From sequence record OR980947: 64,000 nucleotides of DNA; one strand, 5' to 3'. This document shows positions 1,767 through 41,824 of this stretch, piece after piece. A program made the position numbers and the translations under genes. The notes below the pieces were generated by a model. It was not told where the DNA came from, made no database searches, and saw only the letters and a list, made by a program, of their open reading frames with translations. Positions within the stretch are counted from its first letter, which is position 1. Every line of letters starts with the position of its first letter. This DNA is from Shigella phage Tf.

Positions 1767-2297
1767 GTGAACAAGTTCAAAGCCATCAATTACATTCGTT
1801 CAAATGCTGTAATGTCTAAGCCTGTTAAAGATACCTATGAATTTCGTTGTAATGGGGTACACTTTGCAACCATTACCAAATCAGAAAACGGGGTTTATTA
1901 CGTCCATCGTCGTAATGTTGCAACCGTTGTAGTCCGTCACTTTATGCAAGCTGTAGCGGAACTATTACCGCTATTCTTAGAAATTTACTTGGATGAGTGT
2001 AAAAACGTTCACAATCACGTTAAAAACCTTTTAAATAGTTATAAAATGGCTTATGAGCGTTCTATCAAGTCATTGAACAAGTTTTATAAAGCCCCTGTAA
2101 ACACTGTTTCAATGGCTTACAATGTAAGCGGTGAGTTGGTTAGTCTCTTCGAAGTGGAAGAAATCGAACTATATAACTCACGTCCTAGCGGTTACTCTAA
2201 GACACTGGGAGAAGGCTTATCTTTCAATATCAAGAACTTAGAAAAAACTTTAAAAGATATTGAAAAAGATATTGACGAGACAATAAAAAATCTGTAA
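1767..2297 (+). CDS. hypothetical early protein (176 aa, GTG start)
   Basis: ORF; conserved upstream module with AGGAGA RBS; sigma70-like promoter at 1578. Confidence 0.5.
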   Translation: MNKFKAINYIRSNAVMSKPVKDTYEFRCNGVHFATITKSENGVYYVHRRNVATVVVRHFMQAVAELLPLFLEIYLDECKNVHNHVKNLLNSYKMAYERSIKSLNKFYKAPVNTVSMAYNVSGELVSLFEVEEIELYNSRPSGYSKTLGEGLSFNIKNLEKTLKDIEKDIDETIKNL

Positions 2298-2377
2298 ATT
2301 GTCAATCAACGGGGAGGGAATGACCTTCCCCACTAAATAAAACCCTTAAACTACTTCCTAAACTGGAGATTCAAAAA
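2288..2377 (+). repeat. early-gene upstream module copy e
   Basis: aaatctgtaaattgtcaatcaacggggagggaatgaccttccccactaaataaaacccttaaactacttcctaaactggagattcaaa. Confidence 0.65.
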
Positions 2378-2626
2378 ATGGCAACTATCCGCGCAATTGT
2401 AAATTCTTATGGCTGCTACACTCTGGACGTTAAATTTGATATAGGCGGGACTGATGAGTGTTTCGAACTGGTGAAGACGGTCATTAAACAAGTTATCCCA
2501 GATTATAACCCTACTGATGACTTCTGGAAAGATGCTGTAAAAGAGGCATTAAACGACGAGCATCACTATCATTACTGGGGTGACTTGATTGTTTCCCTGT
2601 ACTACAATAAACAAGGTTACAACTAA
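2378..2626 (+). CDS. hypothetical early protein (82 aa)
   Basis: ORF; conserved upstream module; followed by two hairpins and a T-run. Confidence 0.5.
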   Translation: MATIRAIVNSYGCYTLDVKFDIGGTDECFELVKTVIKQVIPDYNPTDDFWKDAVKEALNDEHHYHYWGDLIVSLYYNKQGYN

Positions 2627-2666
2627 TCGACGCAACGGGGCTAAATAGCCCCAGATACCTTTATAC

Positions 2667-2693
2667 AGCCCCTTTCCCATAGGGGCTTTTTTA
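2667..2693 (+). terminator. rho-independent terminator ending the rightward early block
   Basis: agcccctttcccataggggc + tttttt; preceded by second hairpin ggggctaaatagcccc at 2637-2652. Confidence 0.65.
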
Positions 2694-2699
2694 CGTCTT

Positions 2700-3400
2700 A
2701 TCAAATCCTATACAATCCTTTTCCTTTCCTTTCCAGAATCTATCCCACTGATTCGATAGAATCTATCTCGTACCTTAAAAGCAATAACTCTATAGCTTAC
2801 TCTATAGCCCCTTATCAAATCAACTTAAATAAAAGCCAATAACCCCAGAAAGGGGATGGCCCATTAATTGGTATTGTTACCAATCCCTAAAACGCTCTAT
2901 AAAGCTCTATAACAGCCTTATCAACCTAACTTAAGGGATTGCATTACCTCACCCTTAAAAGCCCTTTATAAAGCTTCTGAGAGCCTTAAAAGAATCTTAT
3001 AAGGGTGTAAGCTTATAGGCTGATTAGTATCTTGTGAATGGTTAAACAATCCCTTGATAGTCACTAAAAAGTATGTTATAGGGGCTTAAAAGTTGCTTAA
3101 AAGTAGCTTAAAAGTTACTTCAAAGTTACGTAAATGCTAGCCCCCTTAACATTTTCTTAACAATTTCTTAACAAACCCTACATAGTTATGCTTGTTAGGA
3201 ACTTGTCAGCACCTTGTTAAATCTTTGTTAAAACCATGTAAAAACCTTGTAAGAACCTTCGACATAGCCTTAAAAGCTCCTGTAAAGCCCTATAAAGAGC
3301 TATCCATACAGTTGAGGGGTAAATACTAGGGAGAGCCTTAAAAGAGCTTACAAGGGGCTATAGAGAGCTTTTAAGAGGTATGTTTAAGAAGTCACTAAGA
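2700..3400. repeat. array of CTTAAAAG / CTATAAAG / CTTATAAG-type short repeats in ORF-free region
   Basis: many copies, e.g. ttgcttaaaagtagcttaaaagttacttcaaag (11-bp phasing), gccttaaaagctcctgtaaagccctataaagagc. Confidence 0.7.
2865..2888. promoter_or_regulatory. palindrome-containing site taattggtattgttaccaatccct (copy 1), operator-like
   Basis: inverted repeat ttggta..taccaa; exact 24-nt duplicate at 3516-3539. Confidence 0.45.
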
Positions 3401-4260
3401 AGCAAAGGGAACGATAAGACCAGAGATAGTGACCATGTTAATAGCTTGTTAAAAAGATTAAACACTTGTTAGAGACTTGTTAATTATCTTAACAAAATAA
3501 CTCCTAAAAATTAACTAATTGGTATTGTTACCAATCCCTGTTAGCTCTTGTTAGTCATCTGTTAAGAAACTATAAAGACCATGTATCGACTGTTAAGAAC
3601 TTGTTACACCCTTGTTAGTTCTGTTAAGAATCTGTTAAGACCTTTGGAGAGATGTTAAGAGCTTGTGAGAACTGTTAAGAGATTGTTAAGGATATTTTAA
3701 AATTTTGCAAAGGGGATGTTAAGGAGCTGTTAAGGGCTACCAAGCAGATATACATCCTAATCAGATATTTTCAGTTCCTTCAAAGACCCTAAAAAATGAC
3801 TTGACAGTCCTATTTTATAAAAATTTTAAGATTCTGAATAATTACCTATACAGCCTTTTAAAAATACAGGTAGAAACAGGCTTATAAGATACCTTGTTAG
3901 TACCGTGTTAGACCTTGTGAGATAAGGTCTGTAAAGATATTCCTGTTAAGTTTGTTAAAACAGTCTATATAGAGGCTTAGTAAACCTAGTGAACACCTAT
4001 AGAGAGTGTCATAGGTAACATAATGGGTTACTGTTAAGTAACACAGTTAACCTAGAGATTAAGAGGTGTATAGAGGCTTCTAAGAGCGTATAGAGGGATG
4101 GTTAAGGTGATTGTATAGGTTGTTAAGAAGGCTTGTTAGAAGAGTGTTTAGAAGGGCTATACAGAGGGGGCTATTAAGACCACTAGATAGTTACTAAGAT
4201 ACTATATAGTACTATATAACTATATAGAGAGTAAGATTAAGAAGGTTGTTAAGAAGGATA
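3130..4260. repeat. array of (C)TTGTTA / TGTTAAG(A) repeats at about one helical turn spacing
   Basis: roughly 35-40 copies, e.g. cttgttacacccttgttagttctgttaagaatctgttaagacc and gatgttaagagcttgtgagaactgttaagagattgttaagg. Confidence 0.75.
3516..3539. promoter_or_regulatory. palindrome-containing site taattggtattgttaccaatccct (copy 2)
   Basis: exact duplicate of 2865-2888. Confidence 0.45.
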
Positions 4261-4344
4261 GATATTTTATTCACATATGATGGTGACCCAGAGGTTGGGA
4301 CAACCGATAAAATTTTATAAAAATATAAATTTCGTAAATTTTAC

Positions 4345-4374
4345 TCAATAAAAAGCCCCCGATTAAGGAGGCTC
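4345..4374 (-). terminator. rho-independent terminator (minus strand)
   Basis: minus-strand agcctccttaatcgggggct followed by ttttt. Confidence 0.5.
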
Positions 4375-4384
4375 TTAAGATATT

Positions 4385-5062
4385 TTAAATCAGTGTTTCC
4401 AGAACTGTTTTTAGGGATGACTTGGTTGTCTGATAAAAATGAGTAAATCCATTATTGTTATCAAATACCTGCATCATGATATCATCTCCCTTGATTGGGT
4501 AAACTCGGATATCATAGTGAAAACCATTAAAGACACAAGAACCACTACAGAATGCTCTAAAGTCACTTGCTGAGATATACTCTTCATGACCTGTGATTTT
4601 TATACAAACACCTTTACTCGGCCTCTTAGGGTTGATATCTTCCATCACAGACATACTTTGTCCACCAAGAGATACCATAGTGACCACTTTACGATTCTGC
4701 TGTTTAACATACATCTCAAGTTTCTTCAAAGTATCTTCATAGAACGGATAAGACTTCTTGACAAAGATACCATCAAGTGGTTCTTTACAATCTTCCATAC
4801 GTTCATTATAAAGCTTGCTAGTAATACTATTAAGAGAGAGCTTCTCATCATCTGTCAAATATGTGTTGATATCATCCAGACTAAGTACCAGATACTTTCT
4901 TTCAAGTTCAAACTTTTTCATATCTATTAAGTCCTGAAAACATTTCTTAGTAATTGCTTCCCATTCTTCGGAGTTCTTCTTCTTCCTCCTCTTCAGATGG
5001 GGAACCATATCTTTCAAGTTCATCCAATTCATCCTGCGAAGGTGTCCCGTAAGATTCTTCAT
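4385..5062 (-). CDS. hypothetical protein (start uncertain)
   Basis: ORF-track ORF; terminator-like hairpin just downstream on minus strand. Confidence 0.4.
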   Translation of the reverse strand: MKNLTGHLRRMNWMNLKDMVPHLKRRKKKNSEEWEAITKKCFQDLIDMKKFELERKYLVLSLDDINTYLTDDEKLSLNSITSKLYNERMEDCKEPLDGIFVKKSYPFYEDTLKKLEMYVKQQNRKVVTMVSLGGQSMSVMEDINPKRPSKGVCIKITGHEEYISASDFRAFCSGSCVFNGFHYDIRVYPIKGDDIMMQVFDNNNGFTHFYQTTKSSLKTVLETLI

Positions 5063-5227
5063 CGTACAATTTCATAGTGTGGTATAGAGTAAGTTTTATT
5101 TCCAGATGACATGGCTAAATCTTCTTTAGTAGAGTTATCCAGTATTGCTTTACGAACAATTTCTTTAAGTTTCATTTTCACTACCTTGTTTGGTTAAGAG
5201 GGGCTATCAAGTAACCCCTTCAAGATT

Positions 5228-5455
5228 TTACTCAGAATCCTCAGATTTCTTTTCAGTCTTCTTCGTTTTCTTTTCAGCTTTCTTCTCAACTTCTGGTTTT
5301 GATTCTACAGTAGCTTCAATAGCAATGTCCAGAAGTTTTGAAAGGTCAGCTTTAAGAACCGTTACAGGTTGTTCATTGTAGTAGTTCTTGTCAAGGTGCT
5401 CTTTCAGTTCGTTCAGAGAGCTAAAGCCGAATGGCTGGATAGGTGTCTTAATCAT
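5228..5455 (-). CDS. hypothetical protein with lysine-rich C-terminus (75 aa)
   Basis: ORF-track ORF. Confidence 0.4.
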   Translation of the reverse strand: MIKTPIQPFGFSSLNELKEHLDKNYYNEQPVTVLKADLSKLLDIAIEATVESKPEVEKKAEKKTKKTEKKSEDSE

Positions 5456-5531
5456 TACTTAGTCTCTCCATAGGCATCTTTTAAGATTGCCTTGTTAATC
5501 ATTTCAGAGATTGCAAAACGAACACATACAG

Positions 5532-6065
5532 CTATAATTGTAGGTTGCATTCTTTACTTACCTCTTCAAGTTTAACCTCAGAGTCCTTGAGTCGTTTCTT
5601 ATGAACTCTGAATCTCATTAGTGAGATGATGATACCAGCTAAAGGAACAGTATACAAGTACCAGATATCATGTACCTTTGCAGTAATCTGCGTAATGGTT
5701 AAGTCTTGAGCTATGGAACTGATTGCTGATACTGCCAGTAATGTTGCTAGGAAAAATGCCAGTACCATAACAATGCTTAGGCAGCCTCTGGCATGGTGTT
5801 CATGCTTAATACACTTGTTCTTTTCGTCAACAACCCTGTTGTAGTCATTTGTAAAGTCTCTGTAGAAGGCTTTCAAGTATTCTTGACTGTAGCCTTCAAA
5901 GCAACCTGTACCGTACCAATAATCACCACCAAAGTGTGCTATGATACCAGTATCTCCGTTTGGTTTAGTTACTCTTAGAGAGACGTGATGACCAGTCTTC
6001 TGATAATCTATCTTATATCTTTCTTCGTAAATCATTTTCCAACCCCTCTCAATCGTTTGTTCCAC
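5532..6065 (-). CDS. hypothetical membrane protein
   Basis: ORF; long hydrophobic segment (LSIVMVLAFFLATLLAVSAISSIA) and second hydrophobic stretch. Confidence 0.45.
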   Translation of the reverse strand: MEQTIERGWKMIYEERYKIDYQKTGHHVSLRVTKPNGDTGIIAHFGGDYWYGTGCFEGYSQEYLKAFYRDFTNDYNRVVDEKNKCIKHEHHARGCLSIVMVLAFFLATLLAVSAISSIAQDLTITQITAKVHDIWYLYTVPLAGIIISLMRFRVHKKRLKDSEVKLEEVSKECNLQL

Positions 6066-6250
6066 TCAAGGTCAACAAGTCTTTGCAGGACTTTCCCTCT
6101 AGGTGTTACACCTTTTAAATCTGCATCGTAACAATGGTAAAAGTCACCTTCAGCATGTTTACCATAGCATTTTCTGATATTCTGGCTTCTGCGATACTGT
6201 TCTAACAAGGACAGTTTGTAGTAATCTTCAACTGTAGTTAGTTTTTTCAT
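6032..6250 (-). CDS. hypothetical protein (72 aa)
   Basis: ORF-track ORF overlapping neighbours by a few codons. Confidence 0.35.
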   Translation of the reverse strand: MKKLTTVEDYYKLSLLEQYRRSQNIRKCYGKHAEGDFYHCYDADLKGVTPRGKVLQRLVDLEWNKRLRGVGK

Positions 6251-6792
6251 TCTTTCACCATAGCGTTTCTGAACTGACGTTGAGTCTCTCTTGTAATTTC
6301 GTTTGGAGTAAAGCCAGCTTTTAACATATGTCTGAAAAGATGCTCTAAGTGATTCTCTTCAATAATATAAGTAGTCTTTGTAACTGATGTTTTAAGTTCA
6401 TCTAAGTTGCTATGTAGCTCCTTACACTTACTGGTAAGTTCTGTATCAACTCTCTTAAATACTGGCATCAGATGTGTATGACCACCTTTAGCAGCATCCA
6501 TGAAAAATTTAAAAGATTCTTCAGAGTCCTTTAAAGCAATCCCTATAAAGTTCTTGTAAACACCTGTGAAAGCTAAAGACTCAATCTCAGCAGTTGAGTA
6601 TACAGTCCCTGCGCACAGTCTTGCAGAGGTACTAAATGTGTGGTTTGGTGTTGTGTCAAAGTCTAAGTTCTTCAGTGGTCGAAAATAAACTGTACCATTG
6701 TGTGATATGTGTGTTACAACAGCCTCAACACTCTTCGAAGGGTTCTGTTTCACATACAAAATAATTTTATCGTGCTCTTTCACTTTAGCCAT
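6247..6792 (-). CDS. hypothetical protein (181 aa)
   Basis: ORF-track ORF, tightly packed with neighbours. Confidence 0.45.
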   Translation of the reverse strand: MAKVKEHDKIILYVKQNPSKSVEAVVTHISHNGTVYFRPLKNLDFDTTPNHTFSTSARLCAGTVYSTAEIESLAFTGVYKNFIGIALKDSEESFKFFMDAAKGGHTHLMPVFKRVDTELTSKCKELHSNLDELKTSVTKTTYIIEENHLEHLFRHMLKAGFTPNEITRETQRQFRNAMVKE

Positions 6793-6864
6793 ATCTACTC
6801 TCCAGAAACTAAAAAGGGAACTACCTCTCGATAGCTCCCATCATAGTCAATATTGTATACTCGG

Positions 6865-7446
6865 TCAAGAGTATTTTTTAGGCAGTAATGCACTGCGCTT
6901 GTTACTCTCTTCACTCAATAGTGCGATAAATTCATCACCTTTACCCTTCCACGGGCTGAATGTCGGAATGTGCTCTCTGATAGCATCAATCACTGTTTTA
7001 AGGGCGTTGTTCTTTAACCACCAATCAGATACCGCTGAAGCTACAATGTAATAAGCACCGTCATCTGTGAAGATTGGCTCAGAGATACATGGTGAAATCA
7101 TAGTGGTAATGATAGAACCATTATTCATGTAGTATGTTCTTTTTTCAACCTTATCAAGAAGTTTATGAAGGTCTGCAAAGAGACTTACCACATCTTTATG
7201 GTCAATATCTTTTTCAAGATTTGCTCTGTATTTCAGTAGTGCAGCATCAACCTCTTTATCATTGAATTTGAAGTATTGGACTTCTTCATTCACGCATACA
7301 CTGATGTTGTTAGTGTTTATCGTCAATTTGCACAGTTTGACTGGAGAATTGATGTTGGTCTGAAAAAGTGCTACACAGCCTTCTACATTTCCAAAATGTT
7401 TGACTAATGTAACTTCTGGTTGGATATGCTCATGTTCTTCTGACAT
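6865..7446 (-). CDS. hypothetical protein (193 aa)
   Basis: ORF-track ORF. Confidence 0.45.
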   Translation of the reverse strand: MSEEHEHIQPEVTLVKHFGNVEGCVALFQTNINSPVKLCKLTINTNNISVCVNEEVQYFKFNDKEVDAALLKYRANLEKDIDHKDVVSLFADLHKLLDKVEKRTYYMNNGSIITTMISPCISEPIFTDDGAYYIVASAVSDWWLKNNALKTVIDAIREHIPTFSPWKGKGDEFIALLSEESNKRSALLPKKYS

Positions 7447-7790
7447 TACAGTTTCCTCATTAAATACTTTTTAAGTTGTGTGTTAGGTTTCTCAAAAACT
7501 TCTATAGAAGATATCTTAACAGATTCACCACGCATACCTGTATGTTTGAATATATAGTACTCTAACATACCTATATACTTTGCTGGTAAGTCATACTTGA
7601 CATACACCGTTACAGAATCTTCAAATTCAACAACCTTTGTACCATCTTTGTAGTTAAACTCTTTAGGATGGTCGTAGTTGTCGATATCGTACATTAAAAA
7701 GAGTCTTTTCCGTTGCATATCAAGCTTATTTGTTAAAGACTCTTTTATATCTGAGAAGTTTTTGTACACTGTGACATGGAGCTTACTCAT
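7446..7790 (-). CDS. hypothetical protein (114 aa)
   Basis: ORF-track ORF; stop/start overlap with neighbours. Confidence 0.45.
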   Translation of the reverse strand: MSKLHVTVYKNFSDIKESLTNKLDMQRKRLFLMYDIDNYDHPKEFNYKDGTKVVEFEDSVTVYVKYDLPAKYIGMLEYYIFKHTGMRGESVKISSIEVFEKPNTQLKKYLMRKL

Positions 7791-8076
7791 CGTTAAACTC
7801 TCTGACGAAGAAATAGTTGACTTTATTATTACCTACCATAAGGTCAAAGCAGGTATTCTCAAAAGGCTTGTTGTAGGCATCGTATGAAACATATGGGTCA
7901 GCCACTTGCTTAGTGCTTAACTTCTTACTTGATGGATTTAAGAGGCCACCATACAGATTCTTGATAGCCTCTTCTACAACAGACCAGATGATTTCGTCAG
8001 TAATTTCTTCGTACAGGTCAAGTTCACGCTCTAGTGAGAAGTCACAAATAGGGAAAATAACCTGTACTTTACTCAT
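7783..8076 (-). CDS. hypothetical protein (97 aa)
   Basis: ORF-track ORF. Confidence 0.4.
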   Translation of the reverse strand: MSKVQVIFPICDFSLERELDLYEEITDEIIWSVVEEAIKNLYGGLLNPSSKKLSTKQVADPYVSYDAYNKPFENTCFDLMVGNNKVNYFFVREFNDE

Positions 8077-8477
8077 TAGCGAATAACCTGTGTTACCTGA
8101 ATAGCTTCAGTTACGGACAAGTCACCCACTTTCTCTTCTTTGATAAAAGTGAAGGTGAGTTCAACAGGTTCTTCTTCTTCTTCTTCTTGCTCAACTGGAA
8201 CACCATTAAGCTCATCAAAGATTGATTGGGTTGTCCAGTCTTCACCACCATCTGGGTAGTGGATTGCATACAGAGGTAACTCTAAATTATACCAAGCAAA
8301 AACAGGACAACCATCTACATCATCTCGACATCTGTGTAGATATGAGTTTGCACCTTCAAAATGTAAATACAGATTACCACTCTTCTCATAGATAATCGCA
8401 TCTCGCAGGTCTAATTCTTCATCTCCACTATAACGGCTAACATCGACTTTAACTTTAATCTGATTGATATTATTCAT
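8076..8477 (-). CDS. hypothetical protein with poly-Glu stretch (133 aa)
   Basis: ORF-track ORF; EEEEEEE run. Confidence 0.45.
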   Translation of the reverse strand: MNNINQIKVKVDVSRYSGDEELDLRDAIIYEKSGNLYLHFEGANSYLHRCRDDVDGCPVFAWYNLELPLYAIHYPDGGEDWTTQSIFDELNGVPVEQEEEEEEPVELTFTFIKEEKVGDLSVTEAIQVTQVIR

Positions 8478-8868
8478 AAAAACCTCTCTCTGCTAGTTTT
8501 ATCTTTTCTTTGAGAGTTTCACAACGCTCTATGTGGTATTTTGCTTCACACTCATGGGTTGCTAACTCTCTTTCAAGTAGAGTTTTATAATAACCTGACA
8601 ATTGCTCTGCTGTCAATGGGTGTTCAGAAATAATATCTAATCCACTCTCTCCAAGAGGGTTGAACCGACCGTACTCATCTACTTTGTAAATCTCGAACCT
8701 GAAAAACCCATTCTTAGCACGGGTAATAGGTGATAGTTCAGATAACTCTACAGTGAACTTTGTAGAAACCTCATCACCGCTTACTACAATCTGGCTGCCA
8801 ATAATCCTCACCATTGAGCCATCACGAGTGTACTTAAAAGTTCCAAAGTCACTAGCCCAAAGCTTCAT
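8470..8868 (-). CDS. hypothetical protein (132 aa)
   Basis: ORF-track ORF. Confidence 0.45.
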   Translation of the reverse strand: MKLWASDFGTFKYTRDGSMVRIIGSQIVVSGDEVSTKFTVELSELSPITRAKNGFFRFEIYKVDEYGRFNPLGESGLDIISEHPLTAEQLSGYYKTLLERELATHECEAKYHIERCETLKEKIKLAERGFYE

Positions 8869-8880
8869 AGTTTTCTCCTT

Positions 8881-15697: not shown

Positions 15698-15855
15698 CCT
15701 AATAAGATTTAAAGCCAAGCTTCATTCGGATGTTGCTTTGGTATACCGCGTGTATTGTTGTACACATTGATAAAACACCTAGTAGGTGTCACGGAGAAGA
15801 GATAATATCAAGCTCTCCAAAGGTTCTAGTCACCGGATTAAACAAGACTATGCAA

Positions 15856-15876
15856 AGACCTAAATAGGTCTTTTTA
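15856..15876 (+). terminator. terminator-like hairpin inside tRNA cluster
   Basis: agacctaaataggtct + ttttt. Confidence 0.45.
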
Positions 15877-15954
15877 GAGGGCTTCTAAGGTTATTACAGC
15901 TTGTTGTGGAACCTTGTTGCTTAGGTTCTTAGAAGTTCTCTAAAAAGATTTAAT

Positions 15955-16029
15955 GGGAGATTGATGGTAATTGGTAAACCTATCTCGCTTAGAACGAGAT
16001 GTTTGAGGGTTCGAATCCCTTGTCTCCTA
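15955..16029 (+). tRNA. tRNA with Leu-type anticodon TAG but short variable region
   Basis: acceptor gggagat/gtctcct, anticodon stem tctcg/cgaga loop ctTAGaa, T-loop GGTTCGAATCC, A73, CCA encoded; only 5 nt between anticodon and T arms. Confidence 0.5.
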
Positions 16030-16039
16030 CCAAATTAAT

Positions 16040-16112
16040 GCAGGTGTAGCAAAATGGTTATGCGGCTGACTCTTAATCAGTAAGACGATGGGTTCAATTC
16101 CCTCCACCTGTA
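16040..16112 (+). tRNA. tRNA-Lys (anticodon CTT)
   Basis: paralogue of the TTT tRNA at 14806; anticodon stem ctga/tcag loop ctCTTaa; T-loop GGTTCAATTCC; CCA encoded. Confidence 0.6.
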
Positions 16113-16121
16113 CCAGACATT

Positions 16122-16194
16122 GGGGATGTAGTTTACATGGTTAAAACATAAGTTTTGCAAACTTAAGTACAGGGTTCAATTCCCTGCTTCTCCA
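16122..16194 (+). tRNA. tRNA-Ala (anticodon TGC)
   Basis: D-stem gttt/aaac, anticodon stem taagt/actta loop ttTGCaa, T-stem cagg/cctg, CCA encoded. Confidence 0.7.
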
Positions 16195-16203
16195 CCAATT
16201 AGT

Positions 16204-16275
16204 GCATCCATAGTTTAAACGGGAAAATTACAGTCTTCCAAACTGAGGTTGAGGGTTCGATTCCCTCTGGATGCT
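16204..16275 (+). tRNA. tRNA-Gly (anticodon TCC)
   Basis: perfect acceptor gcatcca/tggatgc, anticodon loop ctTCCaa, T-loop GGTTCGATTCC, CCA encoded. Confidence 0.75.
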
Positions 16276-16284
16276 CCAAACAAT

Positions 16285-16358
16285 GCTGCTTTCGTATAAT
16301 TGGCTATTACACATCCCTTGTAAGGATGGAAATGCAGGTTCGAGTCCTGTGAGCAGCA
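16285..16358 (+). tRNA. tRNA-Thr (anticodon TGT)
   Basis: acceptor gctgctt/gagcagc, anticodon stem catcc/ggatg loop ctTGTaa, T-loop GGTTCGAGTCC, CCA encoded. Confidence 0.75.
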
Positions 16359-16456
16359 CCAATTCAGAGGTCAAGTGAAAGACCGCTGGTGTCAACTGAA
16401 GACCGTAACAAATTCCACGGAGTTGAGTTAGCGGCACAACTTCAGACCTCTTTCAC

Positions 16457-16528
16457 ACTCGCTTAGTTTATATGGTAAAACATCACCCTTACAAGATGAA
16501 GAAAAAGGTTCAAGTCCTTTAGTGAGTA
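16457..16528 (+). tRNA. tRNA-Val (anticodon TAC)
   Basis: acceptor actcgct/agtgagt, anticodon loop ctTACaa, T-loop GGTTCAAGTCC, CCA encoded. Confidence 0.7.
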
Positions 16529-16532
16529 CCAT

Positions 16533-16607
16533 GTTCCAGTATCCCAATTGGCAGAGGATGCAAGCTCAAACCTTGTATTAGTGACGGTTCGAATCCGTCT
16601 TGGAACA
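16533..16607 (+). tRNA. tRNA with Leu-type anticodon CAA but short variable region
   Basis: acceptor gttccag/ttggaac, Leu-like D-loop aattggcaga, anticodon stem gcaag/cttgt loop ctCAAac, T-loop GGTTCGAATCC, A73, CCA encoded. Confidence 0.55.
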
Positions 16608-16629
16608 CCAATTTTAAGAGGCTATTTAG

Positions 16630-17187
16630 ATGAGATACTTAAAGTATGCTTCATGGATTTTCTTAGCTTTGTTAGAGCCATTCGCAGCAATCTTAGCAGT
16701 TATCTTAGCACCTTTTGTAGTTCCATTCTATAGTGAGAAGAAAGGACATCTACCTTTCGGATTCAGATGGATGGAGACATATGACAACCCAATTGATGGT
16801 GATGAAGGTCACGTTAAAAGATGGGCTAAGATTAGAAAGATTGGTAATCTTGGTGTCTATTTGCAGAGAGTTGGATGGCTCTGGAGAAACAAAGCTTATA
16901 ACTTCTCTTACCATGTGTTAGGAAGAGACGTAAAAGATGTTACTAAGTGGAAAGGTAATATCAACGTGAGTTCTGACCCTGAAGATAATCAGACAGGTTA
17001 TCTCCTAATGTGGAACAGTAATGCTTGGGGATTATTCGCTTTTGTCCCATCAATTAAAATCTTTGGTAAACAATTCTACTGGAGAATTTATGTTGGATGG
17101 AAACTAAAAAGTGTTGTCCCAGAAGAAAGAGCATTCTCAAGGGAAAGAGTTATGTTGGCATTCTTTATTCATCCACTGAGAAAGTAA
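16630..17187 (+). CDS. hypothetical membrane protein encoded inside the tRNA cluster
   Basis: ORF 185 aa; N-terminal hydrophobic segment (IFLALLEPFAAILAVILAPFVVPF); Trp/Tyr-rich. Confidence 0.45.
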   Translation: MRYLKYASWIFLALLEPFAAILAVILAPFVVPFYSEKKGHLPFGFRWMETYDNPIDGDEGHVKRWAKIRKIGNLGVYLQRVGWLWRNKAYNFSYHVLGRDVKDVTKWKGNINVSSDPEDNQTGYLLMWNSNAWGLFAFVPSIKIFGKQFYWRIYVGWKLKSVVPEERAFSRERVMLAFFIHPLRK

Positions 17188-17195
17188 AGATTTAA

Positions 17196-17268
17196 AGGGG
17201 ATTAGTTTACAAGGTTAAAACCTCGGTCTTTGAAATCGAAGAAGTTGGTTCAATTCCAACATCCCCCG
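17196..17268 (+). tRNA. tRNA-Gln (anticodon TTG)
   Basis: anticodon stem tcggt/atcga loop ctTTGaa, T-stem gttgg/ccaac, CCA encoded. Confidence 0.7.
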
Positions 17269-17273
17269 CCAAT

Positions 17274-17349
17274 GCTCCATTACTCCAATTGGCAGAGAGG
17301 CCAGACTTAAAATCTGTGTTATGTATCGGTTCGAATCCGATATGGAGTA
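17274..17349 (+). tRNA. tRNA with Leu-type anticodon TAA but short variable region
   Basis: paralogue of 16533-16607 (shared aattggcaga D-loop); anticodon stem caga/tctg loop ctTAAaa; T-loop GGTTCGAATCC; A73; CCA encoded. Confidence 0.5.
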
Positions 17350-17357
17350 CCAAATTT

Positions 17358-17430
17358 AGCGGTATAGCATAACTGGCAATGCAGCAGTCTCTGAAGCTGT
17401 CTTATTAAGGTTCAAATCCTTATGCCGCTG
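17358..17430 (+). tRNA. tRNA-Gln (anticodon CTG)
   Basis: D-stem gcat/atgc, anticodon stem gcagt/gctgt loop ctCTGaa, T-loop GGTTCAAATCC, CCA encoded. Confidence 0.7.
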
Positions 17431-17434
17431 CCAC

Positions 17435-17464
17435 TTCTAAGGGTTCTTACGAGAGTCTTTAAAT
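17435..17464 (+). promoter_or_regulatory. conserved motif cttctaagGGTTCTTACGAGagTCTTTAAAtg (copy 3)
   Basis: just upstream of tRNA-His. Confidence 0.35.
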
Positions 17465-17537
17465 GTGGCCTTATCATAAATGGTAATGACCCATGCTGTG
17501 AACATGGTCTATACGGGTTCAAATCCCGTAGGTCACC
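17465..17537 (+). tRNA. tRNA-His (anticodon GTG)
   Basis: D-stem tcat/atga, anticodon stem ccatg/catgg loop ctGTGaa, T-loop GGTTCAAATCC, C73, CCA encoded. Confidence 0.75.
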
Positions 17538-17545
17538 CCAATTTA

Positions 17546-17620
17546 TAGTCCAAGTAGCTTATATGGTTAAAGCGCGTGTCTGAAAAACATGAGAAGAGGG
17601 TTCAAATCCCACTGGACTAC
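17546..17620 (+). tRNA. tRNA-Phe (anticodon GAA)
   Basis: perfect acceptor tagtcca/tggacta, anticodon stem cgtgt/acatg loop ctGAAaa, T-loop GGTTCAAATCC; D region slightly irregular. Confidence 0.6.
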
Positions 17621-17638
17621 CAATTTCAAAGGTGCTTA

Positions 17639-18373
17639 ATGAAAGAGATGACAGGACAAGGTAAGGAGATTTTTAATCTCTTAAAAACCGGTAAAGGGTT
17701 CTCTAACCCGCTTATTACTGGTGCAGCAGTTCTCGGTGGAACCGTAGCTGCTTCTACATCACTTGTAAGCTCTATTAGTTCTGTAACAGACCCTACAATG
17801 AAGGAGAAACTTGTTGCTGCTGGACTTACAACAGCCCTTCTAAACAGCTTTACAACAAGCCTGACAAGTACTACAGCAACTACTAAGACCCTAACAGACT
17901 ATGGTCAAAAGTCTATTGATGAGTTTTCATCACGTATGCAGGTAGCAAAGGGATACTCCAATGTTATGGGTGCAGCAGGAGAACAAGTTGGTTGTACACC
18001 ATTCAGTGGTATCATGGGTGTTGCTACAGAGTATGGTCAAAAAGCTATTGACATGATGAACAGTGCACTAGATAGTGTTAACGATGTATTAAGTGACTTA
18101 CAAGACGCTATTGACAAGGGTCTTGATACTGTTTCTGATTTAGCTAACCAAGCTGTCAGTAAGATTAATGAAGGTATCTCGAAGATTACAGCTTATGCAG
18201 ATGAAGTTGTGCAGATGATTGAAGAAGAAGCTGCCCTTATTGCAGAGTACCTTAAAACGAATATCAATGGGTTCTTAGCAGGTATCTTACCAGACTGGTT
18301 TGATGATGCTTGTAAAACTGGTGTAATTGACACTATTGCAACACCAGAAATGAAGAACGCATTACAGAAATAA
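17639..18373 (+). CDS. hypothetical protein, Ser/Thr/Ala-rich (start trimmed to avoid tRNA-Phe)
   Basis: ORF-track ORF 17576-18373 overlaps tRNA-Phe; in-frame ATG at 17639 preceded by aaaggtg. Confidence 0.5.
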   Translation: MKEMTGQGKEIFNLLKTGKGFSNPLITGAAVLGGTVAASTSLVSSISSVTDPTMKEKLVAAGLTTALLNSFTTSLTSTTATTKTLTDYGQKSIDEFSSRMQVAKGYSNVMGAAGEQVGCTPFSGIMGVATEYGQKAIDMMNSALDSVNDVLSDLQDAIDKGLDTVSDLANQAVSKINEGISKITAYADEVVQMIEEEAALIAEYLKTNINGFLAGILPDWFDDACKTGVIDTIATPEMKNALQK

Positions 18374-18375
18374 AT

Positions 18376-18465
18376 GGAAGATTAACCCTAAAAGGTAAGG
18401 GAGCAGTTTGCTAAACTGCCAGTAGCTGAGAAATCGGTGTACCAGTTCAAGTCTGGTATCTTCCT
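18376..18465 (+). tRNA. tRNA-Ser (anticodon GCT), long variable arm
   Basis: 90 nt; acceptor ggaagat/atcttcc, anticodon stem gcagt/actgc loop ttGCTaa, long variable arm, T-arm accag-TTCAAGT-ctggt, CCA encoded. Confidence 0.7.
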
Positions 18466-18472
18466 CCAATTT

Positions 18473-18545
18473 GAATCCGTGACAGAAACGGCTATGTGCC
18501 TGTCTGCAAAACAGGTTTATAAGGGTTCGAGTCCCTTCGGATTCT
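18473..18545 (+). tRNA. tRNA-Cys (anticodon GCA)
   Basis: acceptor gaatccg/cggattc, anticodon stem cctgt/acagg loop ctGCAaa, T-arm aaggg-TTCGAGT-ccctt, CCA encoded. Confidence 0.7.
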
Positions 18546-18593
18546 CCAAGTTATTTTACTCTCTCTCAATTAAAATAATAATAATGCCCTGCT

Positions 18594-39463: not shown

Positions 39464-41824
39464 ATGGCAGATTACAAATTGAGTCAATTAAACTCAATCG
39501 ACACAATTCGTTCAGAAGACCTATTGCACATCAGAGTTAAGAAAAGACCTGAAATGTTGGGTGACGAAGACCGTCGAATGACCTATCAAGACTTCTTAGC
39601 ATCTTTTAAACTAGAAAGATTTGTTCAGATTGCTGGTAGCACTATGACGGGTGACTTAGGAATTGTTAAGTTACTTTATGGTGGTAAGGCAGTCTTTGAC
39701 CCAACAGGCTCTTCTGAGATTAATATTGGTGATGTTTTAAAGACTTTTAAAATCAACGCAAATGGTCTTAAGTTAACCGTTGCAGATGCTTCAAGGTCTG
39801 CAACTGTTTATCATACTCTTAATAAACCAAGCCCTAATGAACTTGGGATGAGAACCAATGAAGAGAACGATGCAAGGTATGCAAAACTATCTGCAAATAA
39901 CATCTTTACATCCCAACAAACTATCCAAGCAAATGGTGAAGCTATTAGGTTAAAAAACTCTTCTGAGAACTCACCGTTGTATATCAGAGGTCAGGATAGT
40001 GCTGGTGAGAATAGATGGTATATCGGTAATGGTTCAGGGGGTGATAATGTTACTATCCGCAACCACAAGACAGACTGTGAAGTTATTCTATCTAGTGTCG
40101 TGGCTATCAATAAAACATTAAGCATCACGGGTCAAGTCAAACCTTCTGACTTCTCTAACTTAGATGCTAGATATTTCACTCAGACAGTCGCTAATCAGAG
40201 ATTTGCACAGTTAGCTGGCAATAACACCTTTACAGGTGCTAACACATTTAGGACTATGAGTGTTATTTCAAATGCTGCTGCCATCACACTGCAATGTGCA
40301 TCAGCAAACGAATCCCTGTATCTACTTGCAAAAGATTATGAAGGTGGAAACTTATGGTATCTTGGTAAAGATAGTTCAGGTGCTGGTGTAACTATCTACA
40401 ACTATACCACTAACACCTCTTTGTTCTTAGATGCTGCTGGGGTATCAGCAAATAAAAATGTCAGAATCACTGGACAAGTTCAACCTTCAGATTGGACTAA
40501 CATTGACTCTAGATACATTCCAGTAGCTACTTTGAGCAATCTTGCTAAAATTAATGTGTCTAACACTTTCACAAATGTGCAGACTATTGTATCAAATAAT
40601 GAAGGTGTAGTATTAAAGAACTTAACACAGGGACAGCCGCAATATATCCGTGGTGTTGATACTGCGAACGTATCTAGGTGGTGGGTAGGTGTAGGTGATG
40701 CAAATTCTACTGATGTAGCCTTAAACAACAGCTTCTCTGGGACTCAAATTACTCTTATGACTTCAGCGATTAAGGCTAATAAGAATCTAACCATTACTGG
40801 TCAAGTACAACCTTCTGATTGGTCTAACTTAGATGCTAGATATTTCTTGAAAACAAAACTATTAAACCAATCTTTAATGACAAGGACAGCTAATAGACTG
40901 GATGACCCATCATCATTCAACAAAGATTATTCAGGGTTTGTAAGAAATAATAACATAGAGCAGGGTCTGAAAGATTTAGCCATCCATGTAGCACATGCTG
41001 CTGGTATTGCTCATGCCAGAGGTATTGCTTTTGAATATGGGTCTACAGGTCTTAATGTCTTCACATATGCCTATGGCAAAAATGGTGACTATGCCGGAGA
41101 AGCACAGATTTATACAACTGCTTTTAAACCAACCCCTTCAGAAATTGGTGCATACACTAAAGCTGAAACTGACCAGAAGATTGCAGAAGCGATTAGTGAC
41201 TCTACAGACCTTAATAAAATCTATCCAGTAGGTATTGTAACGTGGTTTAACAGTAATGTTAACCCTAATACAGCACTTCCTGGTCTAACTTGGACGTACC
41301 TGAATAATGGTGTTGGTAGAACTATTAGAATTGCAGCAGCAAACGGTTCAGATGTTGCTACAACTGGTGGTTCAGACTCTGTAACGTTGTCTGTTGGTAA
41401 CTTACCTTCACACACGCATAGTTTCTCTGGAACGACTTCTTGGTTTGACTATGGAACTAAGTACACAGACGGTCAGGGTGCTCACGACCATGACAGAGGT
41501 AACATGGAAATCTCTGGTGACTTTGGTTTCTTCAGAAGTGATGCAAATAACTTTTATACAGCAAGTGGGGCATTCGCTATCTCAGGTTCACAAGCCTCTA
41601 GGGGTTTTACTGGCTCTAAGTTCACTTATGGTACACCTGTCAACTTCTACGCATCAAGAACTTGGACAGGGAGAACAAGCTGGGTAGGTGCTCATGCACA
41701 TGGTGTAGGTATTGGTGCTCACAACCATACGGTAAGTGGTAACACAGGTGTCACAGGTTCTGGTTCAGCATTTAGTGTCACTAACCAATTCTATAAGTTA
41801 ATGGCTTGGGTAAGAACTGCTTAA
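39464..41824 (+). CDS. long tail fibre protein with internal repeats and His-x-His motifs
   Basis: 786 aa; three copies of ...ITGQV(K/Q)PSD(F/W)(S/T)N(L/I)D(A/S)RY...; C-terminal HTHS, HDHD, HAHG, HNHT motifs; conserved C-terminal ...AFSV...WVRTA. Confidence 0.7.
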   Translation: MADYKLSQLNSIDTIRSEDLLHIRVKKRPEMLGDEDRRMTYQDFLASFKLERFVQIAGSTMTGDLGIVKLLYGGKAVFDPTGSSEINIGDVLKTFKINANGLKLTVADASRSATVYHTLNKPSPNELGMRTNEENDARYAKLSANNIFTSQQTIQANGEAIRLKNSSENSPLYIRGQDSAGENRWYIGNGSGGDNVTIRNHKTDCEVILSSVVAINKTLSITGQVKPSDFSNLDARYFTQTVANQRFAQLAGNNTFTGANTFRTMSVISNAAAITLQCASANESLYLLAKDYEGGNLWYLGKDSSGAGVTIYNYTTNTSLFLDAAGVSANKNVRITGQVQPSDWTNIDSRYIPVATLSNLAKINVSNTFTNVQTIVSNNEGVVLKNLTQGQPQYIRGVDTANVSRWWVGVGDANSTDVALNNSFSGTQITLMTSAIKANKNLTITGQVQPSDWSNLDARYFLKTKLLNQSLMTRTANRLDDPSSFNKDYSGFVRNNNIEQGLKDLAIHVAHAAGIAHARGIAFEYGSTGLNVFTYAYGKNGDYAGEAQIYTTAFKPTPSEIGAYTKAETDQKIAEAISDSTDLNKIYPVGIVTWFNSNVNPNTALPGLTWTYLNNGVGRTIRIAAANGSDVATTGGSDSVTLSVGNLPSHTHSFSGTTSWFDYGTKYTDGQGAHDHDRGNMEISGDFGFFRSDANNFYTASGAFAISGSQASRGFTGSKFTYGTPVNFYASRTWTGRTSWVGAHAHGVGIGAHNHTVSGNTGVTGSGSAFSVTNQFYKLMAWVRTA

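What the first reader, a model, noticed from the sequence alone, without database searches (positions are those of the whole stretch)
4385..8868. Block of ten leftward genes with no recognisable functions
ORFs from 4385 to 8868 are tightly packed on the minus strand (many stop/start overlaps) and include a membrane protein (5532-6065), a poly-Glu protein and several small acidic proteins, none with motifs I can assign. In virulent phages such blocks often encode host-takeover or anti-defence functions, so they are worth profile and structure searches even though sequence alone supports no specific claim.
Basis: inference. Interest (0 to 1): 0.4.

Follow-up and report, generated by a model that had tools for sequence, protein, structure and literature searches.

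The report
Felix O1-type block of unassigned genes
This is the already-catalogued set of "hypothetical" genes that sits downstream of the lysis enzyme in Felix O1-like phages; it is real and still has no assigned function, but published knockout data on close relatives show it mixes at least one essential core gene with dispensable accessory genes.

Summary
Window 4385-8868 carries ten substantial minus-strand genes plus three tiny ORFs, tightly packed and under purifying selection. The window is a Felixounavirus. The block equals Felix O1 ORF24-34, Bas63 gp112-122 and SUSP1 agp112-123, and is present in about 250 phage records.

The block is two units, each bounded by a terminator hairpin directly abutted by a sigma-70-like promoter. 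The hexamers are conserved across three genera.

- **Unit A (8868-6865, ORF34-30)** is conserved across Felixounavirus, Suspvirus and Mooglevirus. The Bas63 orthologue of ORF30 scores like structural genes in a published knockout screen, and ORF34 scores like the endolysin or worse. The ORF31-ORF30 pair recurs in distant phages.
- **Unit B (6792-4385, ORF29-24)** is mosaic and indel-rich. It is dispensable in laboratory hosts, and two genes matter more on E. coli S17-1.

The host-takeover/anti-defence reading is possible for unit B only and fits unit A poorly. This is a known unknown of modest interest.

The parts
8893..8942 (-). Boundary element 1. A sigma-70-like promoter (TTGACA-17 nt-TATCTT, 8942-8914, inside the 3' end of the endolysin gene) sits 3 nt upstream of a terminator hairpin AGGCTCC-TTCG-GGAGCCT plus T-run (8910-8893). 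The hairpin equals Felix O1 t35.
   Evidence: The -35 hexamer (TTGAC) and the TA...T skeleton of the -10 hexamer are conserved in SUSP1 and Michonne, with the spacer changed at 5 of 17 positions. Promoter activity and start site are inferred, not shown.
8470..8868 (-). ORF34 homologue (132 aa) = Felix O1 ORF34 = Bas63 gp122 = SUSP1 agp123. It is a soluble protein predicted to have a small N-terminal beta domain and a 40-residue C-terminal helix.
8076..8477 (-). ORF33 homologue (133 aa, pI 4.2) with a length-variable poly-Glu linker. It equals Bas63 gp121. Some records label it 'D-alanyl-D-alanine carboxypeptidase' without support.
   Evidence: phrog_4348. No Pfam or NCBIfam hit at E<=1. The only PDB hit is E 0.57 to SAE2. 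Only one invariant His (H73); H39 and H48 are not conserved. Bas63 g121 fitness is noisy, 0.1 to -1.7.
7783..8076 (-). ORF32 homologue (97 aa, pI 4.4) = Bas63 gp120.
   Evidence: phrog_4385 at E 2.6e-60. 69-73% identical in Suspvirus and Mooglevirus, and 26% in Yersinia phage P778 in the same position. No PDB relative.
7446..7790 (-). ORF31 homologue (114 aa, pI 9.1) = Bas63 gp119. It forms a conserved neighbouring pair with ORF30 in distant phages.
   Evidence: phrog_4040. ORF31-like genes lie immediately upstream of the ORF30-like gene, or one small gene away, in P778 and in two metagenomic contigs L010 and L014. No PDB relative.
6865..7446 (-). ORF30 homologue (193 aa) = Felix O1 ORF30 = Bas63 gp118 (99% identical) = SUSP1 agp119. 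It is the essential-like member of the block. It is soluble, not detected in virions, and has no recognised fold.
6816..6868 (-). Boundary element 2. A sigma-70-like promoter (TTGACC-17 nt-TATGAT, 6868-6840) directly abuts a 10-bp terminator hairpin plus T-run (6839-6816). The hairpin equals Felix O1 t29.
   Evidence: Both hexamers and their register to the hairpin are conserved in Felixounavirus, Suspvirus and Mooglevirus while the spacer sequence diverges. This and boundary element 1 are the only two promoter-plus-hairpin composites among 37 promoter-like matches in the 64-kb window.
6247..6792 (-). ORF29 homologue (181 aa). It is a variable member, absent from Bas63 and only 28-37% identical in SUSP1 and Michonne.
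   Evidence: phrog_5380. Presence and absence. No significant PDB relative.
6032..6250 (-). ORF28 homologue (72 aa, pI 9.6) = Bas63 gp117.
   Evidence: phrog_4459. Its stop codon overlaps the ATG start (6035) of ORF27 by 4 nt, the ATGA motif. Bas63 g117 is non-essential.
5532..6035 (-). ORF27 homologue, a membrane protein (167 aa from ATG 6035, or 177 aa from GTG 6065) = Bas63 gp116. It has a conserved 80-aa N-terminal domain, two transmembrane segments, and a conserved charged tail EEVSKECNL. The predicted topology is N-in/C-in.
   Evidence: phrog_4343. Hydropathy. The alignment shows basic residues on both sides of the hairpin. Homologues occur only in the Felixounavirus/Suspvirus/Mooglevirus group. 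Bas63 g116 fitness is +0.5 to +1.1 in MG1655 and the third host but -0.1 to -0.2 in S17. There is a weak GpsB/DivIVA-like motif: PDB E 0.03, hhalign 42%.
5455..5550 (-). 31-aa ORF = Bas63 gp115 = SUSP1 agp115 = Michonne105. It overlaps the end of ORF27 and abuts ORF26.
   Evidence: The codon-position pattern is not decisive (15/7/16).
5228..5455 (-). ORF26 homologue (75 aa, Lys/Glu-rich tail) = Bas63 gp114. The allele is mosaic: 99% identical to Sl26 but 62-64% to Felix O1 and Bas63.
   Evidence: phrog_4457. Identities. Bas63 g114 scores lower on S17-1 than on the other hosts, and the authors note a rough XseB-like fold.
5199..5219 (-). Conserved intergenic hairpin AGGGG-TTACTTGATAG-CCCCT with no T-run, between ORF26 and ORF25.
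   Evidence: Read. Identical in five Felixounavirus genomes. Role unknown.
5059..5175 (-). 38-aa remnant of Felix O1 ORF25 (154 aa). The N- and C-terminal ends are kept and the middle is deleted. Sl26 has the same arrangement.
4947..5075 (-). 42-aa acidic ORF (pI 4.05) that overlaps the 5' end of the ORF24 reading frame in another frame.
   Evidence: Its frame is the conserved one against Michonne, with synonymous TCT->AGT and AGA->CGA changes. Codon-position counts are 8/4/16. No relative has it fused in frame to ORF24.
4385..5062 (-). ORF24 homologue = Bas63 gp112. Up to 225 aa here, but the start is uncertain (5062, or the conserved ATG at 5008). It has an N-terminal domain shared with other phage families and a conserved C-terminal domain.
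   Evidence: phrog_4330 at E 1.1e-106 from residue 27. Residues 52-130 also hit phrogs 7432, 7810 and 5992. This domain is also found in RB16, Vibrio and Pantoea phages. Frame analysis.
4356..4370 (-). Terminal intrinsic terminator of the block (CTCC-TTAATC-GGGGG plus T-run).
   Evidence: Conserved in relatives.

Best explanation
The block is the Felix O1-type ORF24-ORF34 region of a virulent Felixounavirus.

Shown:
- It consists of two terminator-delimited units on the leftward arm that also carries the endolysin and the Hoc-like capsid decoration gene.
- Unit A (ORF34-33-32-31-30, 8868-6865) is conserved in order and sequence across at least three Ounavirinae genera.
- Its last gene, ORF30, has an orthologue (99% identical) that behaves as essential in Bas63. 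ORF34's orthologue has a fitness cost equal to or greater than that of the endolysin.
- ORF31-ORF30 recur as neighbours in distantly related phages.
- Unit B (ORF29 to ORF24, 6792-4385) is mosaic and indel-prone. It is non-essential in laboratory E. coli in Bas63, and ORF26 and the membrane protein ORF27 matter more on S17-1.

Inferred:
- Each unit is transcribed by host RNA polymerase from a sigma-70-type promoter whose -10 box abuts the preceding terminator hairpin. Transcripts from upstream would stop at the hairpin. Transcripts started at the promoter would begin inside the 5' arm of the hairpin and escape it.
- Unit A proteins are soluble, non-virion factors of the phage's basic middle-to-late reproductive programme. 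The most likely role is particle morphogenesis or maturation, with ORF31/ORF30 acting together. They are unlikely to be host-takeover or anti-defence accessories.
- Unit B is the accessory, host-specific part. ORF27 would be a membrane-anchored protein with both conserved domains in the cytoplasm, acting at the inner membrane.
For: - Identity and synteny with Felix O1, Bas63, SUSP1 and Michonne.
- Terminators identical to Felix O1 t35 and t29.
- Promoter-plus-hairpin composites: the only two in the window, with conserved hexamers (spacer strongly divergent at 6868, partly at 8942) in three genera.
- Coding status of all ORFs.
- Knockout fitness of Bas63 g112-g124 in three host sheets, from the PhageMaP preprint supplement. 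Authors' text on g114 and g116.
- ORF30 family breadth.
- ORF31-ORF30 pairing in P778, L010 and L014.
- No block product in the Felix O1 virion proteome, and gp118/gp122 not named in the Bas63 cryo-EM paper.
- Felix O1 RT-PCR: ORF30 peaks at 60 min together with tail and baseplate genes, and most others at 25 min.
- Mosaicism and indels in unit B: ORF29 absent in Bas63, ORF25 cut to 38 aa here, and per-gene identities ranging from 62 to 99%.
- ORF27 topology.
Against: - The phenotypes come from relatives (Bas63, SUSP1), not from this phage, and from a preprint pooled screen whose barcode insertions could have polar effects.
- In SUSP1 CRISPRi-ART every gene of the block is 'Not Fit'. That screen also misses the endolysin and several structural genes. 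agp119 is a strong negative outlier there, which remains unexplained.
- The Felix O1 RT-PCR timing is coarse and internally odd; the major capsid gene is listed at 5 min and ORF31 at 5 min.
- No fold, motif or partner supports a morphogenetic role. The ORF30 model is only pLDDT 62.
- Promoter activity and transcript start sites are predicted from consensus only, and promoter-like matches as a whole are not enriched over shuffles (31 against 29.8).
- Bas63 g119, g120 and g121 knockouts are mild or noisy, so unit A is not uniformly essential.
Confidence: 0.55

Rival explanations
1. The whole block is an early host-takeover or anti-defence cassette. On this view the small, acidic, fast-evolving proteins inhibit host or defence proteins and are dispensable in permissive hosts.
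For: - The proteins are small, several are acidic, and none is assigned.
- Unit B is mosaic and dispensable in laboratory hosts, with host-dependent effects for g114 and g116.
- Sigma-70-type promoters would allow early transcription.
Against: - g118 is essential-like and g122 costly in all three host sheets read (S17, MG1655 and a third host).
- Unit A is conserved across genera.
- Most ORFs peak at 25 or 60 min in Felix O1.
- The PhageMaP text names no validated counter or confirmed trigger within g112-g122.
- There are no PADLOC hits, though that library holds defence families, not anti-defence families.
Confidence: 0.15
2. The block is a lysis-control cluster attached to the endolysin. On this view ORF27 is the holin or antiholin, and ORF34 and its neighbours regulate lysis timing.
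For: - The block lies directly downstream of the endolysin.
- ORF27 has two transmembrane segments and a charged C-terminal tail.
- The g122 knockout fitness tracks that of the endolysin in two hosts.
- The Felix O1 paper could not identify a holin next to the lysin.
- The CRISPRi-ART authors note unusual lysis phenotypes in this subfamily.
Against: - A strong terminator separates the endolysin from the block.
- ORF27 lies 3 kb away in the other unit and carries an 80-aa conserved N-terminal domain that is atypical for class II holins.
- The Bas63 g116 knockout is neutral to beneficial in MG1655 and the third host.
- Other holin candidates and the spanins are annotated elsewhere: Bas63 g29, g153 and g89/90.
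- ORF34 has no transmembrane segment.
- The g118 phenotype is far stronger than that of the endolysin.
Confidence: 0.15
3. Some members are ordinary enzymes that have simply diverged, notably ORF33 as a D-alanyl-D-alanine carboxypeptidase acting on the cell wall together with the endolysin.
For: Several GenBank records and the PhageMaP BLASTp-based relabelling carry this product name for the orthologues.
Against: - There is no Pfam or NCBIfam peptidase hit, even at E<=1.
- Its PHROG is 'unknown function'.
- There is no PDB relative.
- Only one invariant histidine is present, so no two-His-plus-Asp metal site is conserved.
- The protein is 133 aa with a poly-Glu linker.
Confidence: 0.03

Closest known systems
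Felix O1 ORF24-ORF34 (Felix01p050-p068) = Bas63/JohannRWettstein gp112-gp122 = SUSP1 agp112-agp123 = Michonne gp97-gp110
   Same: The gene order, strand and position are the same: downstream of the endolysin and the Ig-like capsid decoration gene. The PHROGs are the same. The t35 and t29 terminators are identical. Nucleotide identity is 87-89% overall to many Felixounavirus genomes.
   Different: In this window ORF25 is reduced to a 38-aa remnant, followed by a 42-aa acidic ORF, as in Sl26 and partly in Michonne. ORF29 is present, unlike in Bas63. Each gene has a different closest relative: ORF30 is 99% identical to Bas63, ORF34 98% to ESCO50, and ORF26 99% to Sl26. The poly-Glu run of ORF33 is longer here.
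Clusters of small non-essential genes of unknown function in T4-like and other large virulent phages (plastic or accessory regions); comparison from general knowledge
   Same: Unit B shares the tight packing, small products, indels, mosaic alleles, dispensability in laboratory hosts, and host-dependent effects.
   Different: Unit A does not behave this way. It is conserved across genera and contains an essential-like gene. Neither unit has a member with a known T4 counterpart in any search run here.
Class II holins (two transmembrane segments, N-in/C-in)
   Same: ORF27 has two hydrophobic segments, predicted N-in/C-in topology and a charged C-terminal tail.
   Different: ORF27 is 167 aa with a conserved 80-aa cytoplasmic N-terminal domain. 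It is not adjacent to the endolysin. Its orthologue is dispensable, even mildly deleterious, in Bas63 on MG1655.
GpsB/DivIVA N-terminal domain
   Same: There is a short motif match, GY..E...AF..D...DY....N, in ORF27 residues 45-80.
   Different: The match covers only 28-36 columns, with E 0.03 and hhalign probability 42%. The Pfam DivIVA model is not hit. ORF27 continues into a membrane hairpin rather than a coiled coil. This is a lead only.

Membership tests
Felix O1-type ORF24-34 block of Ounavirinae | Each product is homologous to the corresponding Felix O1/Bas63 protein family | tested here: met
   There is one PHROG per ORF at E 1e-37 to 1e-106. tblastn identities are 62-99% to Felixounavirus and 28-88% to Suspvirus and Mooglevirus.
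Felix O1-type ORF24-34 block of Ounavirinae | Same order and strand, downstream of the endolysin and the Ig-like decoration gene, bounded by the t35, t29 and terminal terminators | tested here: met
Class II holin (for ORF27) | Small membrane protein with at least two transmembrane segments and a charged C-terminus | tested here: inconclusive
   Two hydrophobic segments and a basic/acidic tail are present. However, the protein is 167 aa with a large conserved N-terminal domain.
Class II holin (for ORF27) | Required for timed lysis or normal plaque formation | tested here: not met
   This rests on published data for the orthologue, not on this phage. Bas63 g116 fitness is +0.5 to +1.1 in MG1655 and the third host. 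Direct lysis timing was not measured.
D-Ala-D-Ala carboxypeptidase (VanY / peptidase M15, LAS fold) (for ORF33) | Match to a peptidase M15/VanY or S11/S13 profile | tested here: not met
   There is no Pfam or NCBIfam hit at E<=1 and no PDB sequence relative.
D-Ala-D-Ala carboxypeptidase (VanY / peptidase M15, LAS fold) (for ORF33) | Conserved metal-binding residues (two His and one Asp) | tested here: not met
   Only H73 is invariant among six orthologues. H39 and H48 are replaced by Arg or Lys in SUSP1 and Michonne.
GpsB/DivIVA domain (for ORF27 N-terminal domain) | Significant profile match to the DivIVA domain | tested here: inconclusive
   PDB hmmsearch gives E 0.03 to three GpsB chains. 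hhalign gives 42% over 28 columns, against sequences written from memory. Pfam DivIVA is not among the hits at E<=10.
Pfam DUF5092 (for ORF30) | Score above the Pfam gathering threshold (27 bits) | tested here: not met
   The score is 18.6 bits at E 0.002 for the window protein. Six of 17 family members match, with a best E of 5.9e-5. The family has no known function and no literature.
Virion structural proteins | Detected in purified particles | not testable with these tools
   From the literature: none of ORF24-34 is among the Felix O1 virion proteins found by mass spectrometry, and gp118/gp122 are not named in the Bas63 cryo-EM paper.
Known anti-defence (counter-defence) proteins | Loss of the gene reduces plating on a host carrying a defined defence system | not testable with these tools
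   From the literature: the PhageMaP text names validated counters g77, g79, g80, g84, g85 and g130, and none lies in g112-g122. I did not read the full defence table. No anti-defence profile library was available.

The most novel reading that the evidence does not exclude
The ORF31-ORF30 pair (7790-6865) may encode a previously undescribed, essential, non-virion assembly factor with a fold unlike any solved structure, possibly needed for tail-fibre or late particle maturation. ORF30's orthologue is essential-like in Bas63. In the SUSP1 knock-down screen it shares a rare extreme negative phenotype with the long tail fibre gene. The pair recurs in distant phages. A second part of this reading is that the promoter-inside-terminator junctions act as insulators that reset transcription between units.
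Probability: 0.25. Interest if true: 0.45.

Novelty: already known. Interest (0 to 1): 0.28.

Why it matters
Felix O1-like phages are used for Salmonella and E. coli typing, biocontrol and therapy, yet about two thirds of their genes have no assigned function.

This check shows the block should not be treated as one accessory cassette that could be deleted or replaced when engineering such phages. The orthologue of ORF30 is as important as capsid genes, and ORF34 also carries a clear fitness cost. The ORF29-24 half is the flexible region where payloads or host-range determinants are more likely to be tolerated.

The check also removes a misleading enzyme label (D-Ala-D-Ala carboxypeptidase) that is spreading through database records. 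It points to a small, testable target, ORF31/ORF30, for finding a missing essential function in this phage subfamily.

Tried and rejected
**Searches that assigned nothing**
- PHROGs, Pfam, NCBIfam and PADLOC on all ten proteins gave only unknown-function PHROGs and sub-threshold noise.
- PDB sequence searches, with profiles for ORF27, ORF30 and ORF34 and single sequences for ORF24, 29, 31, 32 and 33, found nothing significant.
- Rfam found nothing credible across 2000-9000.

**Context searches that failed or were uninformative**
- The search for related loci failed with the diverse ORF30 alignment (no conserved stretch) and found nothing in IMG/VR for two distant homologues.
- Gene neighbourhoods of distant ORF30 homologues contain mostly unannotated small genes.

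**Hypotheses considered and set aside**
- ORF30 as a T4 gp55-like late sigma factor (a comparison made from memory). I rejected it because the model is alpha/beta and no sigma profile matches.
- ORF30 as small terminase. I rejected it because the DUF5681 gene at 11668-12039 is the better candidate (that link is from memory) and is itself essential in Bas63.
- A programmed +1 frameshift fusing the 42-aa acidic ORF to ORF24. No relative has an in-frame fusion and no slippery site is conserved in Sl26, so this is unresolved and leans towards overlapping genes.
- The GpsB/DivIVA similarity of ORF27 stayed inconclusive.
- DUF5092 has no literature.

Full report
**What the window is**

Window 4385-8868 matches 253 phage records by megablast, nearly all Felixounavirus (Felix O1-like myophages of Salmonella, E. 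coli and Shigella). The best full-length matches are 87-89% identical. The rest of the window fits this: 23 tRNA genes, a structural module, and about 39% G+C.

The block corresponds gene for gene to Felix O1 ORF24-ORF34, Bas63/JohannRWettstein gp112-gp122, SUSP1 agp112-agp123 and Michonne gp97-gp110. Immediately upstream in the direction of transcription are the endolysin (8920-9384) and an Ig-domain protein (9384-10265). Older records call the latter a tail protein. The Bas63 cryo-EM study showed it to be a Hoc-like capsid hexamer decoration protein.

**Check of the observation**

They are genuine genes:
- Each hits a single PHROG at E 1e-37 to 1e-106.
- Substitutions against six relatives pile up at third codon positions, with totals such as 139/90/428 for ORF30, 82/54/194 for ORF27 and 52/36/179 for ORF33.

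Three small ORFs add to the count:
- a 31-aa ORF (5455-5550) that relatives also annotate;
- a 38-aa ORF (5059-5175) that keeps only the two ends of the 154-aa Felix O1 ORF25;
- a 42-aa acidic ORF (4947-5075).

The membrane protein, the poly-Glu stretches and the acidic products are as described.

**Function searches**

Nothing assigns a role. All ten PHROGs are 'unknown function'. No Pfam or NCBIfam hit reaches its cut-off, and PADLOC has none. PDB sequence searches are empty or insignificant.

The product name 'D-alanyl-D-alanine carboxypeptidase' carried by ORF33 orthologues in several records has no support. There is no peptidase profile hit and no PDB relative. Only one histidine is invariant among six orthologues.

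**Anatomy: two units**

Three intrinsic terminators on the minus strand frame the block. They lie at 8910-8893 after the endolysin, at 6839-6816 after ORF30, and at 4370-4356 after ORF24. The first two are identical to the Felix O1 terminators t35 and t29. Michonne has terminators annotated at the same three places.

Each internal terminator is directly preceded by a sigma-70-like promoter. TTGACA-17-TATCTT ends 3 nt before the first hairpin. TTGACC-17-TATGAT ends at the base before the second hairpin.

Among 37 TTGAC-N16-18-TAnnnT matches in the 64-kb window, these are the only two followed at once by a terminator hairpin. In an alignment across Felixounavirus, Suspvirus and Mooglevirus, the hexamers and their register to the hairpin are conserved. 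The spacer at the second site diverges strongly and that at the first site only partly (5 of 17 positions), which is the pattern expected of functional -35 and -10 elements.

A start site about 7 nt after the -10 box would fall inside the 5' arm of the hairpin. Transcripts arriving from upstream would therefore terminate, while transcripts started there could not form the hairpin and would read on. This last step is inference. No transcript ends were available.

**Conservation**

Unit A (ORF34, 33, 32, 31, 30) is present in the same order in Suspvirus and Mooglevirus at 60-73% protein identity.

ORF30 reaches further. A profile search of 1.84 billion representative proteins found 14 members; the 10 distant ones I scanned all fall in phrog_4109. 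The family has an invariant WW...F.PW motif. It occurs in:
- Hafnia phage Zyzzx, again a few genes downstream of the lysin;
- Yersinia phage P778;
- Erwinia phages;
- unrelated metagenomic contigs.

An ORF31-like gene lies immediately upstream of the ORF30-like gene, or one small gene away, in P778 and in two metagenomic contigs. P778 also keeps an ORF32-like gene.

Unit B is different:
- ORF29 is missing from Bas63 and only 28-37% identical in other genera.
- ORF25 is internally deleted here.
- ORF26 is 99% identical to Sl26 but about 63% to Felix O1.
- ORF27 and ORF28 drop to about 50% outside the genus.

Within unit A, too, the closest relative changes from gene to gene. ORF30 is 99% identical to Bas63 and ORF34 98% to ESCO50, so recombination has shuffled alleles.

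**Published phenotypes of the orthologues**

The PhageMaP preprint (10.1101/2024.10.10.617714) made barcoded insertion knockouts across Bas63 and scored them on four E. coli strains. Its supplementary table gives the following.

| Bas63 gene | Window equivalent | MG1655 | Third host sheet | S17 |
|---|---|---|---|---|
| g118 | ORF30 | -2.7 to -2.9 | -2.4 to -2.9 | -1.3 to -1.6 |
| g122 | ORF34 | about -0.9 | -2.5, -3.0, -0.8 | -1.1 to -1.3 |

- The g118 values are in the range of capsid, tail and DNA polymerase genes.
- g122 is equal to or worse than the endolysin g123.
- g121 is noisy and mildly negative.
- g119 and g120 are near zero to mildly negative.
- g113-g117 are at or above zero in MG1655 and the third host.

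The authors single out g114 (ORF26) and g116 (ORF27) as more important on S17-1, the only strain tested that carries conjugative transfer genes. The validated counters they name are g77, g79, g80, g84, g85 and g130, and the confirmed triggers are g40 and g123. None is in the block, although the endolysin next to it (g123) triggers retron Ec67. I did not read the full defence table.

In the SUSP1 CRISPRi-ART screen (PMC11879866), all of agp112-agp124 are 'Not Fit'. That screen also misses the endolysin and several structural genes. Curiously, agp119 (ORF30) scores -4.81. It is one of two extreme negative outliers among agp001-agp123. The other is the long tail fibre agp026 at -4.59. The authors do not comment on this.

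In Felix O1, RT-PCR placed ORF24-26, 28, 29 and 32-35 at 25 min, ORF31 at 5 min, and ORF30 at 60 min together with tail and baseplate genes. None of ORF24-34 was found in the virion proteome. The Bas63 cryo-EM paper does not name gp118 or gp122.

**Interpretation**

Taken together, the block is not a uniform accessory cassette.

Unit A behaves as part of the subfamily's core programme. It contains one essential-like and one costly-to-lose soluble, non-virion protein. I think a role in particle morphogenesis or maturation is most likely, with ORF31 and ORF30 working together. The evidence for that specific role is indirect: late expression of ORF30, absence from virions, and the screen phenotype it shares with the tail fibre. 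A regulatory role is not excluded.

ORF27 is predicted to sit in the inner membrane with both conserved domains in the cytoplasm, because basic residues flank both ends of the hairpin. Its N-terminal domain has a weak GpsB/DivIVA-like motif (E 0.03; hhalign 42% over 28 columns; Pfam DivIVA not hit). I treat this only as a lead.

A holin role for ORF27 is unlikely because its orthologue is dispensable and the protein is atypical. A lysis-control role for ORF34 cannot be excluded.

**The 5' end of ORF24**

Upstream of a GAA repeat, the frame conserved against Michonne is that of the 42-aa acidic ORF, shown by multi-nucleotide synonymous changes TCT->AGT and AGA->CGA. Downstream of the repeat, the ORF24 frame is the conserved one.

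A +1 shift would fuse the two. However, no relative encodes a fused protein in frame, and Sl26 lacks a comparable site. Overlapping genes, with ORF24 starting at the conserved ATG at 5008, seem more likely, but this is unresolved.

**Novelty and score**

The block is a known set of conserved hypothetical genes, present in about 250 sequenced phages and already covered by two genome-wide functional screens of relatives. This window adds only local variants.

The useful outcomes are the split into a core unit and an accessory unit, the conserved promoter-terminator junctions, the removal of a spurious enzyme label, and the pointer to ORF31/ORF30 as an essential function with no recognisable fold. 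I rate the interest as low to moderate.

Noticed in passing
window 9384-10265 (-): The gene called 'tail protein' or 'major tail protein' in older Felix O1-type records is the Hoc-like hexamer decoration protein (Hex-Dec, Bas63 gp124) with Ig-like repeats. It is 293 aa here, against 460 aa in Bas63 and 377 aa in ESCO50, so the number of Ig repeats varies.
   Followed up: partly
window about 2700-4385: About 1.7 kb has no ORF longer than 51 aa. It lies between the rightward early genes and the end of the leftward block. The same gap exists in Felix O1 (12305-13928) and Bas63 (70492-72155). There is no credible Rfam match. A conserved non-coding stretch of this size is unusual for a phage.
   Followed up: partly
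window 12122-13537 (+) and 13703-18548: A 471-aa DUF2828/Ro60-like RNA-binding protein is the orthologue of Bas63 gp130, a published counter of the ppl defence. It lies directly upstream of the cluster of 23 tRNA genes.
   Followed up: no
window 11668-12039 (+): A 123-aa protein is the orthologue of Bas63 g129 (DUF5681). It has one of the strongest knockout defects in PhageMaP, -2.7 to -3.8 in MG1655 and the third host sheet (milder on S17, -0.9 to -1.5). It is possibly the small terminase subunit; that link is from memory and was not tested.
   Followed up: no
window 4947-5075 and 5008-5062 (-): Two reading frames overlap across a GAA/AAG repeat. The frame of the 42-aa acidic ORF is conserved upstream of the repeat and the ORF24 frame downstream. 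The choice between overlapping genes and a +1 frameshift is unresolved.
   Followed up: partly
SUSP1 agp119 (= window 6865-7446) and agp026 (= window 39464-41824): In the published SUSP1 CRISPRi-ART table these two genes are the only extreme negative outliers (-4.81 and -4.59) among agp001-agp123. The paper does not discuss this.
   Followed up: partly
window 8150-8180 (poly-Glu codons of ORF33): The Glu run is longer here (EQEEEEEEP) than in Felix O1 and ESCO50 (EQEEQEP), and it differs again in Bas63. This is a length-variable GAA repeat inside a coding region.
   Followed up: yes
GenBank GU169904 and OK283618 (relatives, not the window): 'Staphylococcus phage SA1' (147 kb) contains a Felix O1-like segment 88% identical to this block. 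'Listeria phage LPML1' carries an Ounavirinae genome close to Hafnia phages. The host labels or assemblies look unreliable.
   Followed up: no
window 5199-5219 (-): A hairpin AGGGG-N11-CCCCT without a T-run lies between ORF26 and ORF25 and is identical in five Felixounavirus genomes. It may be an RNA processing or stability element, or a weak terminator.
   Followed up: partly
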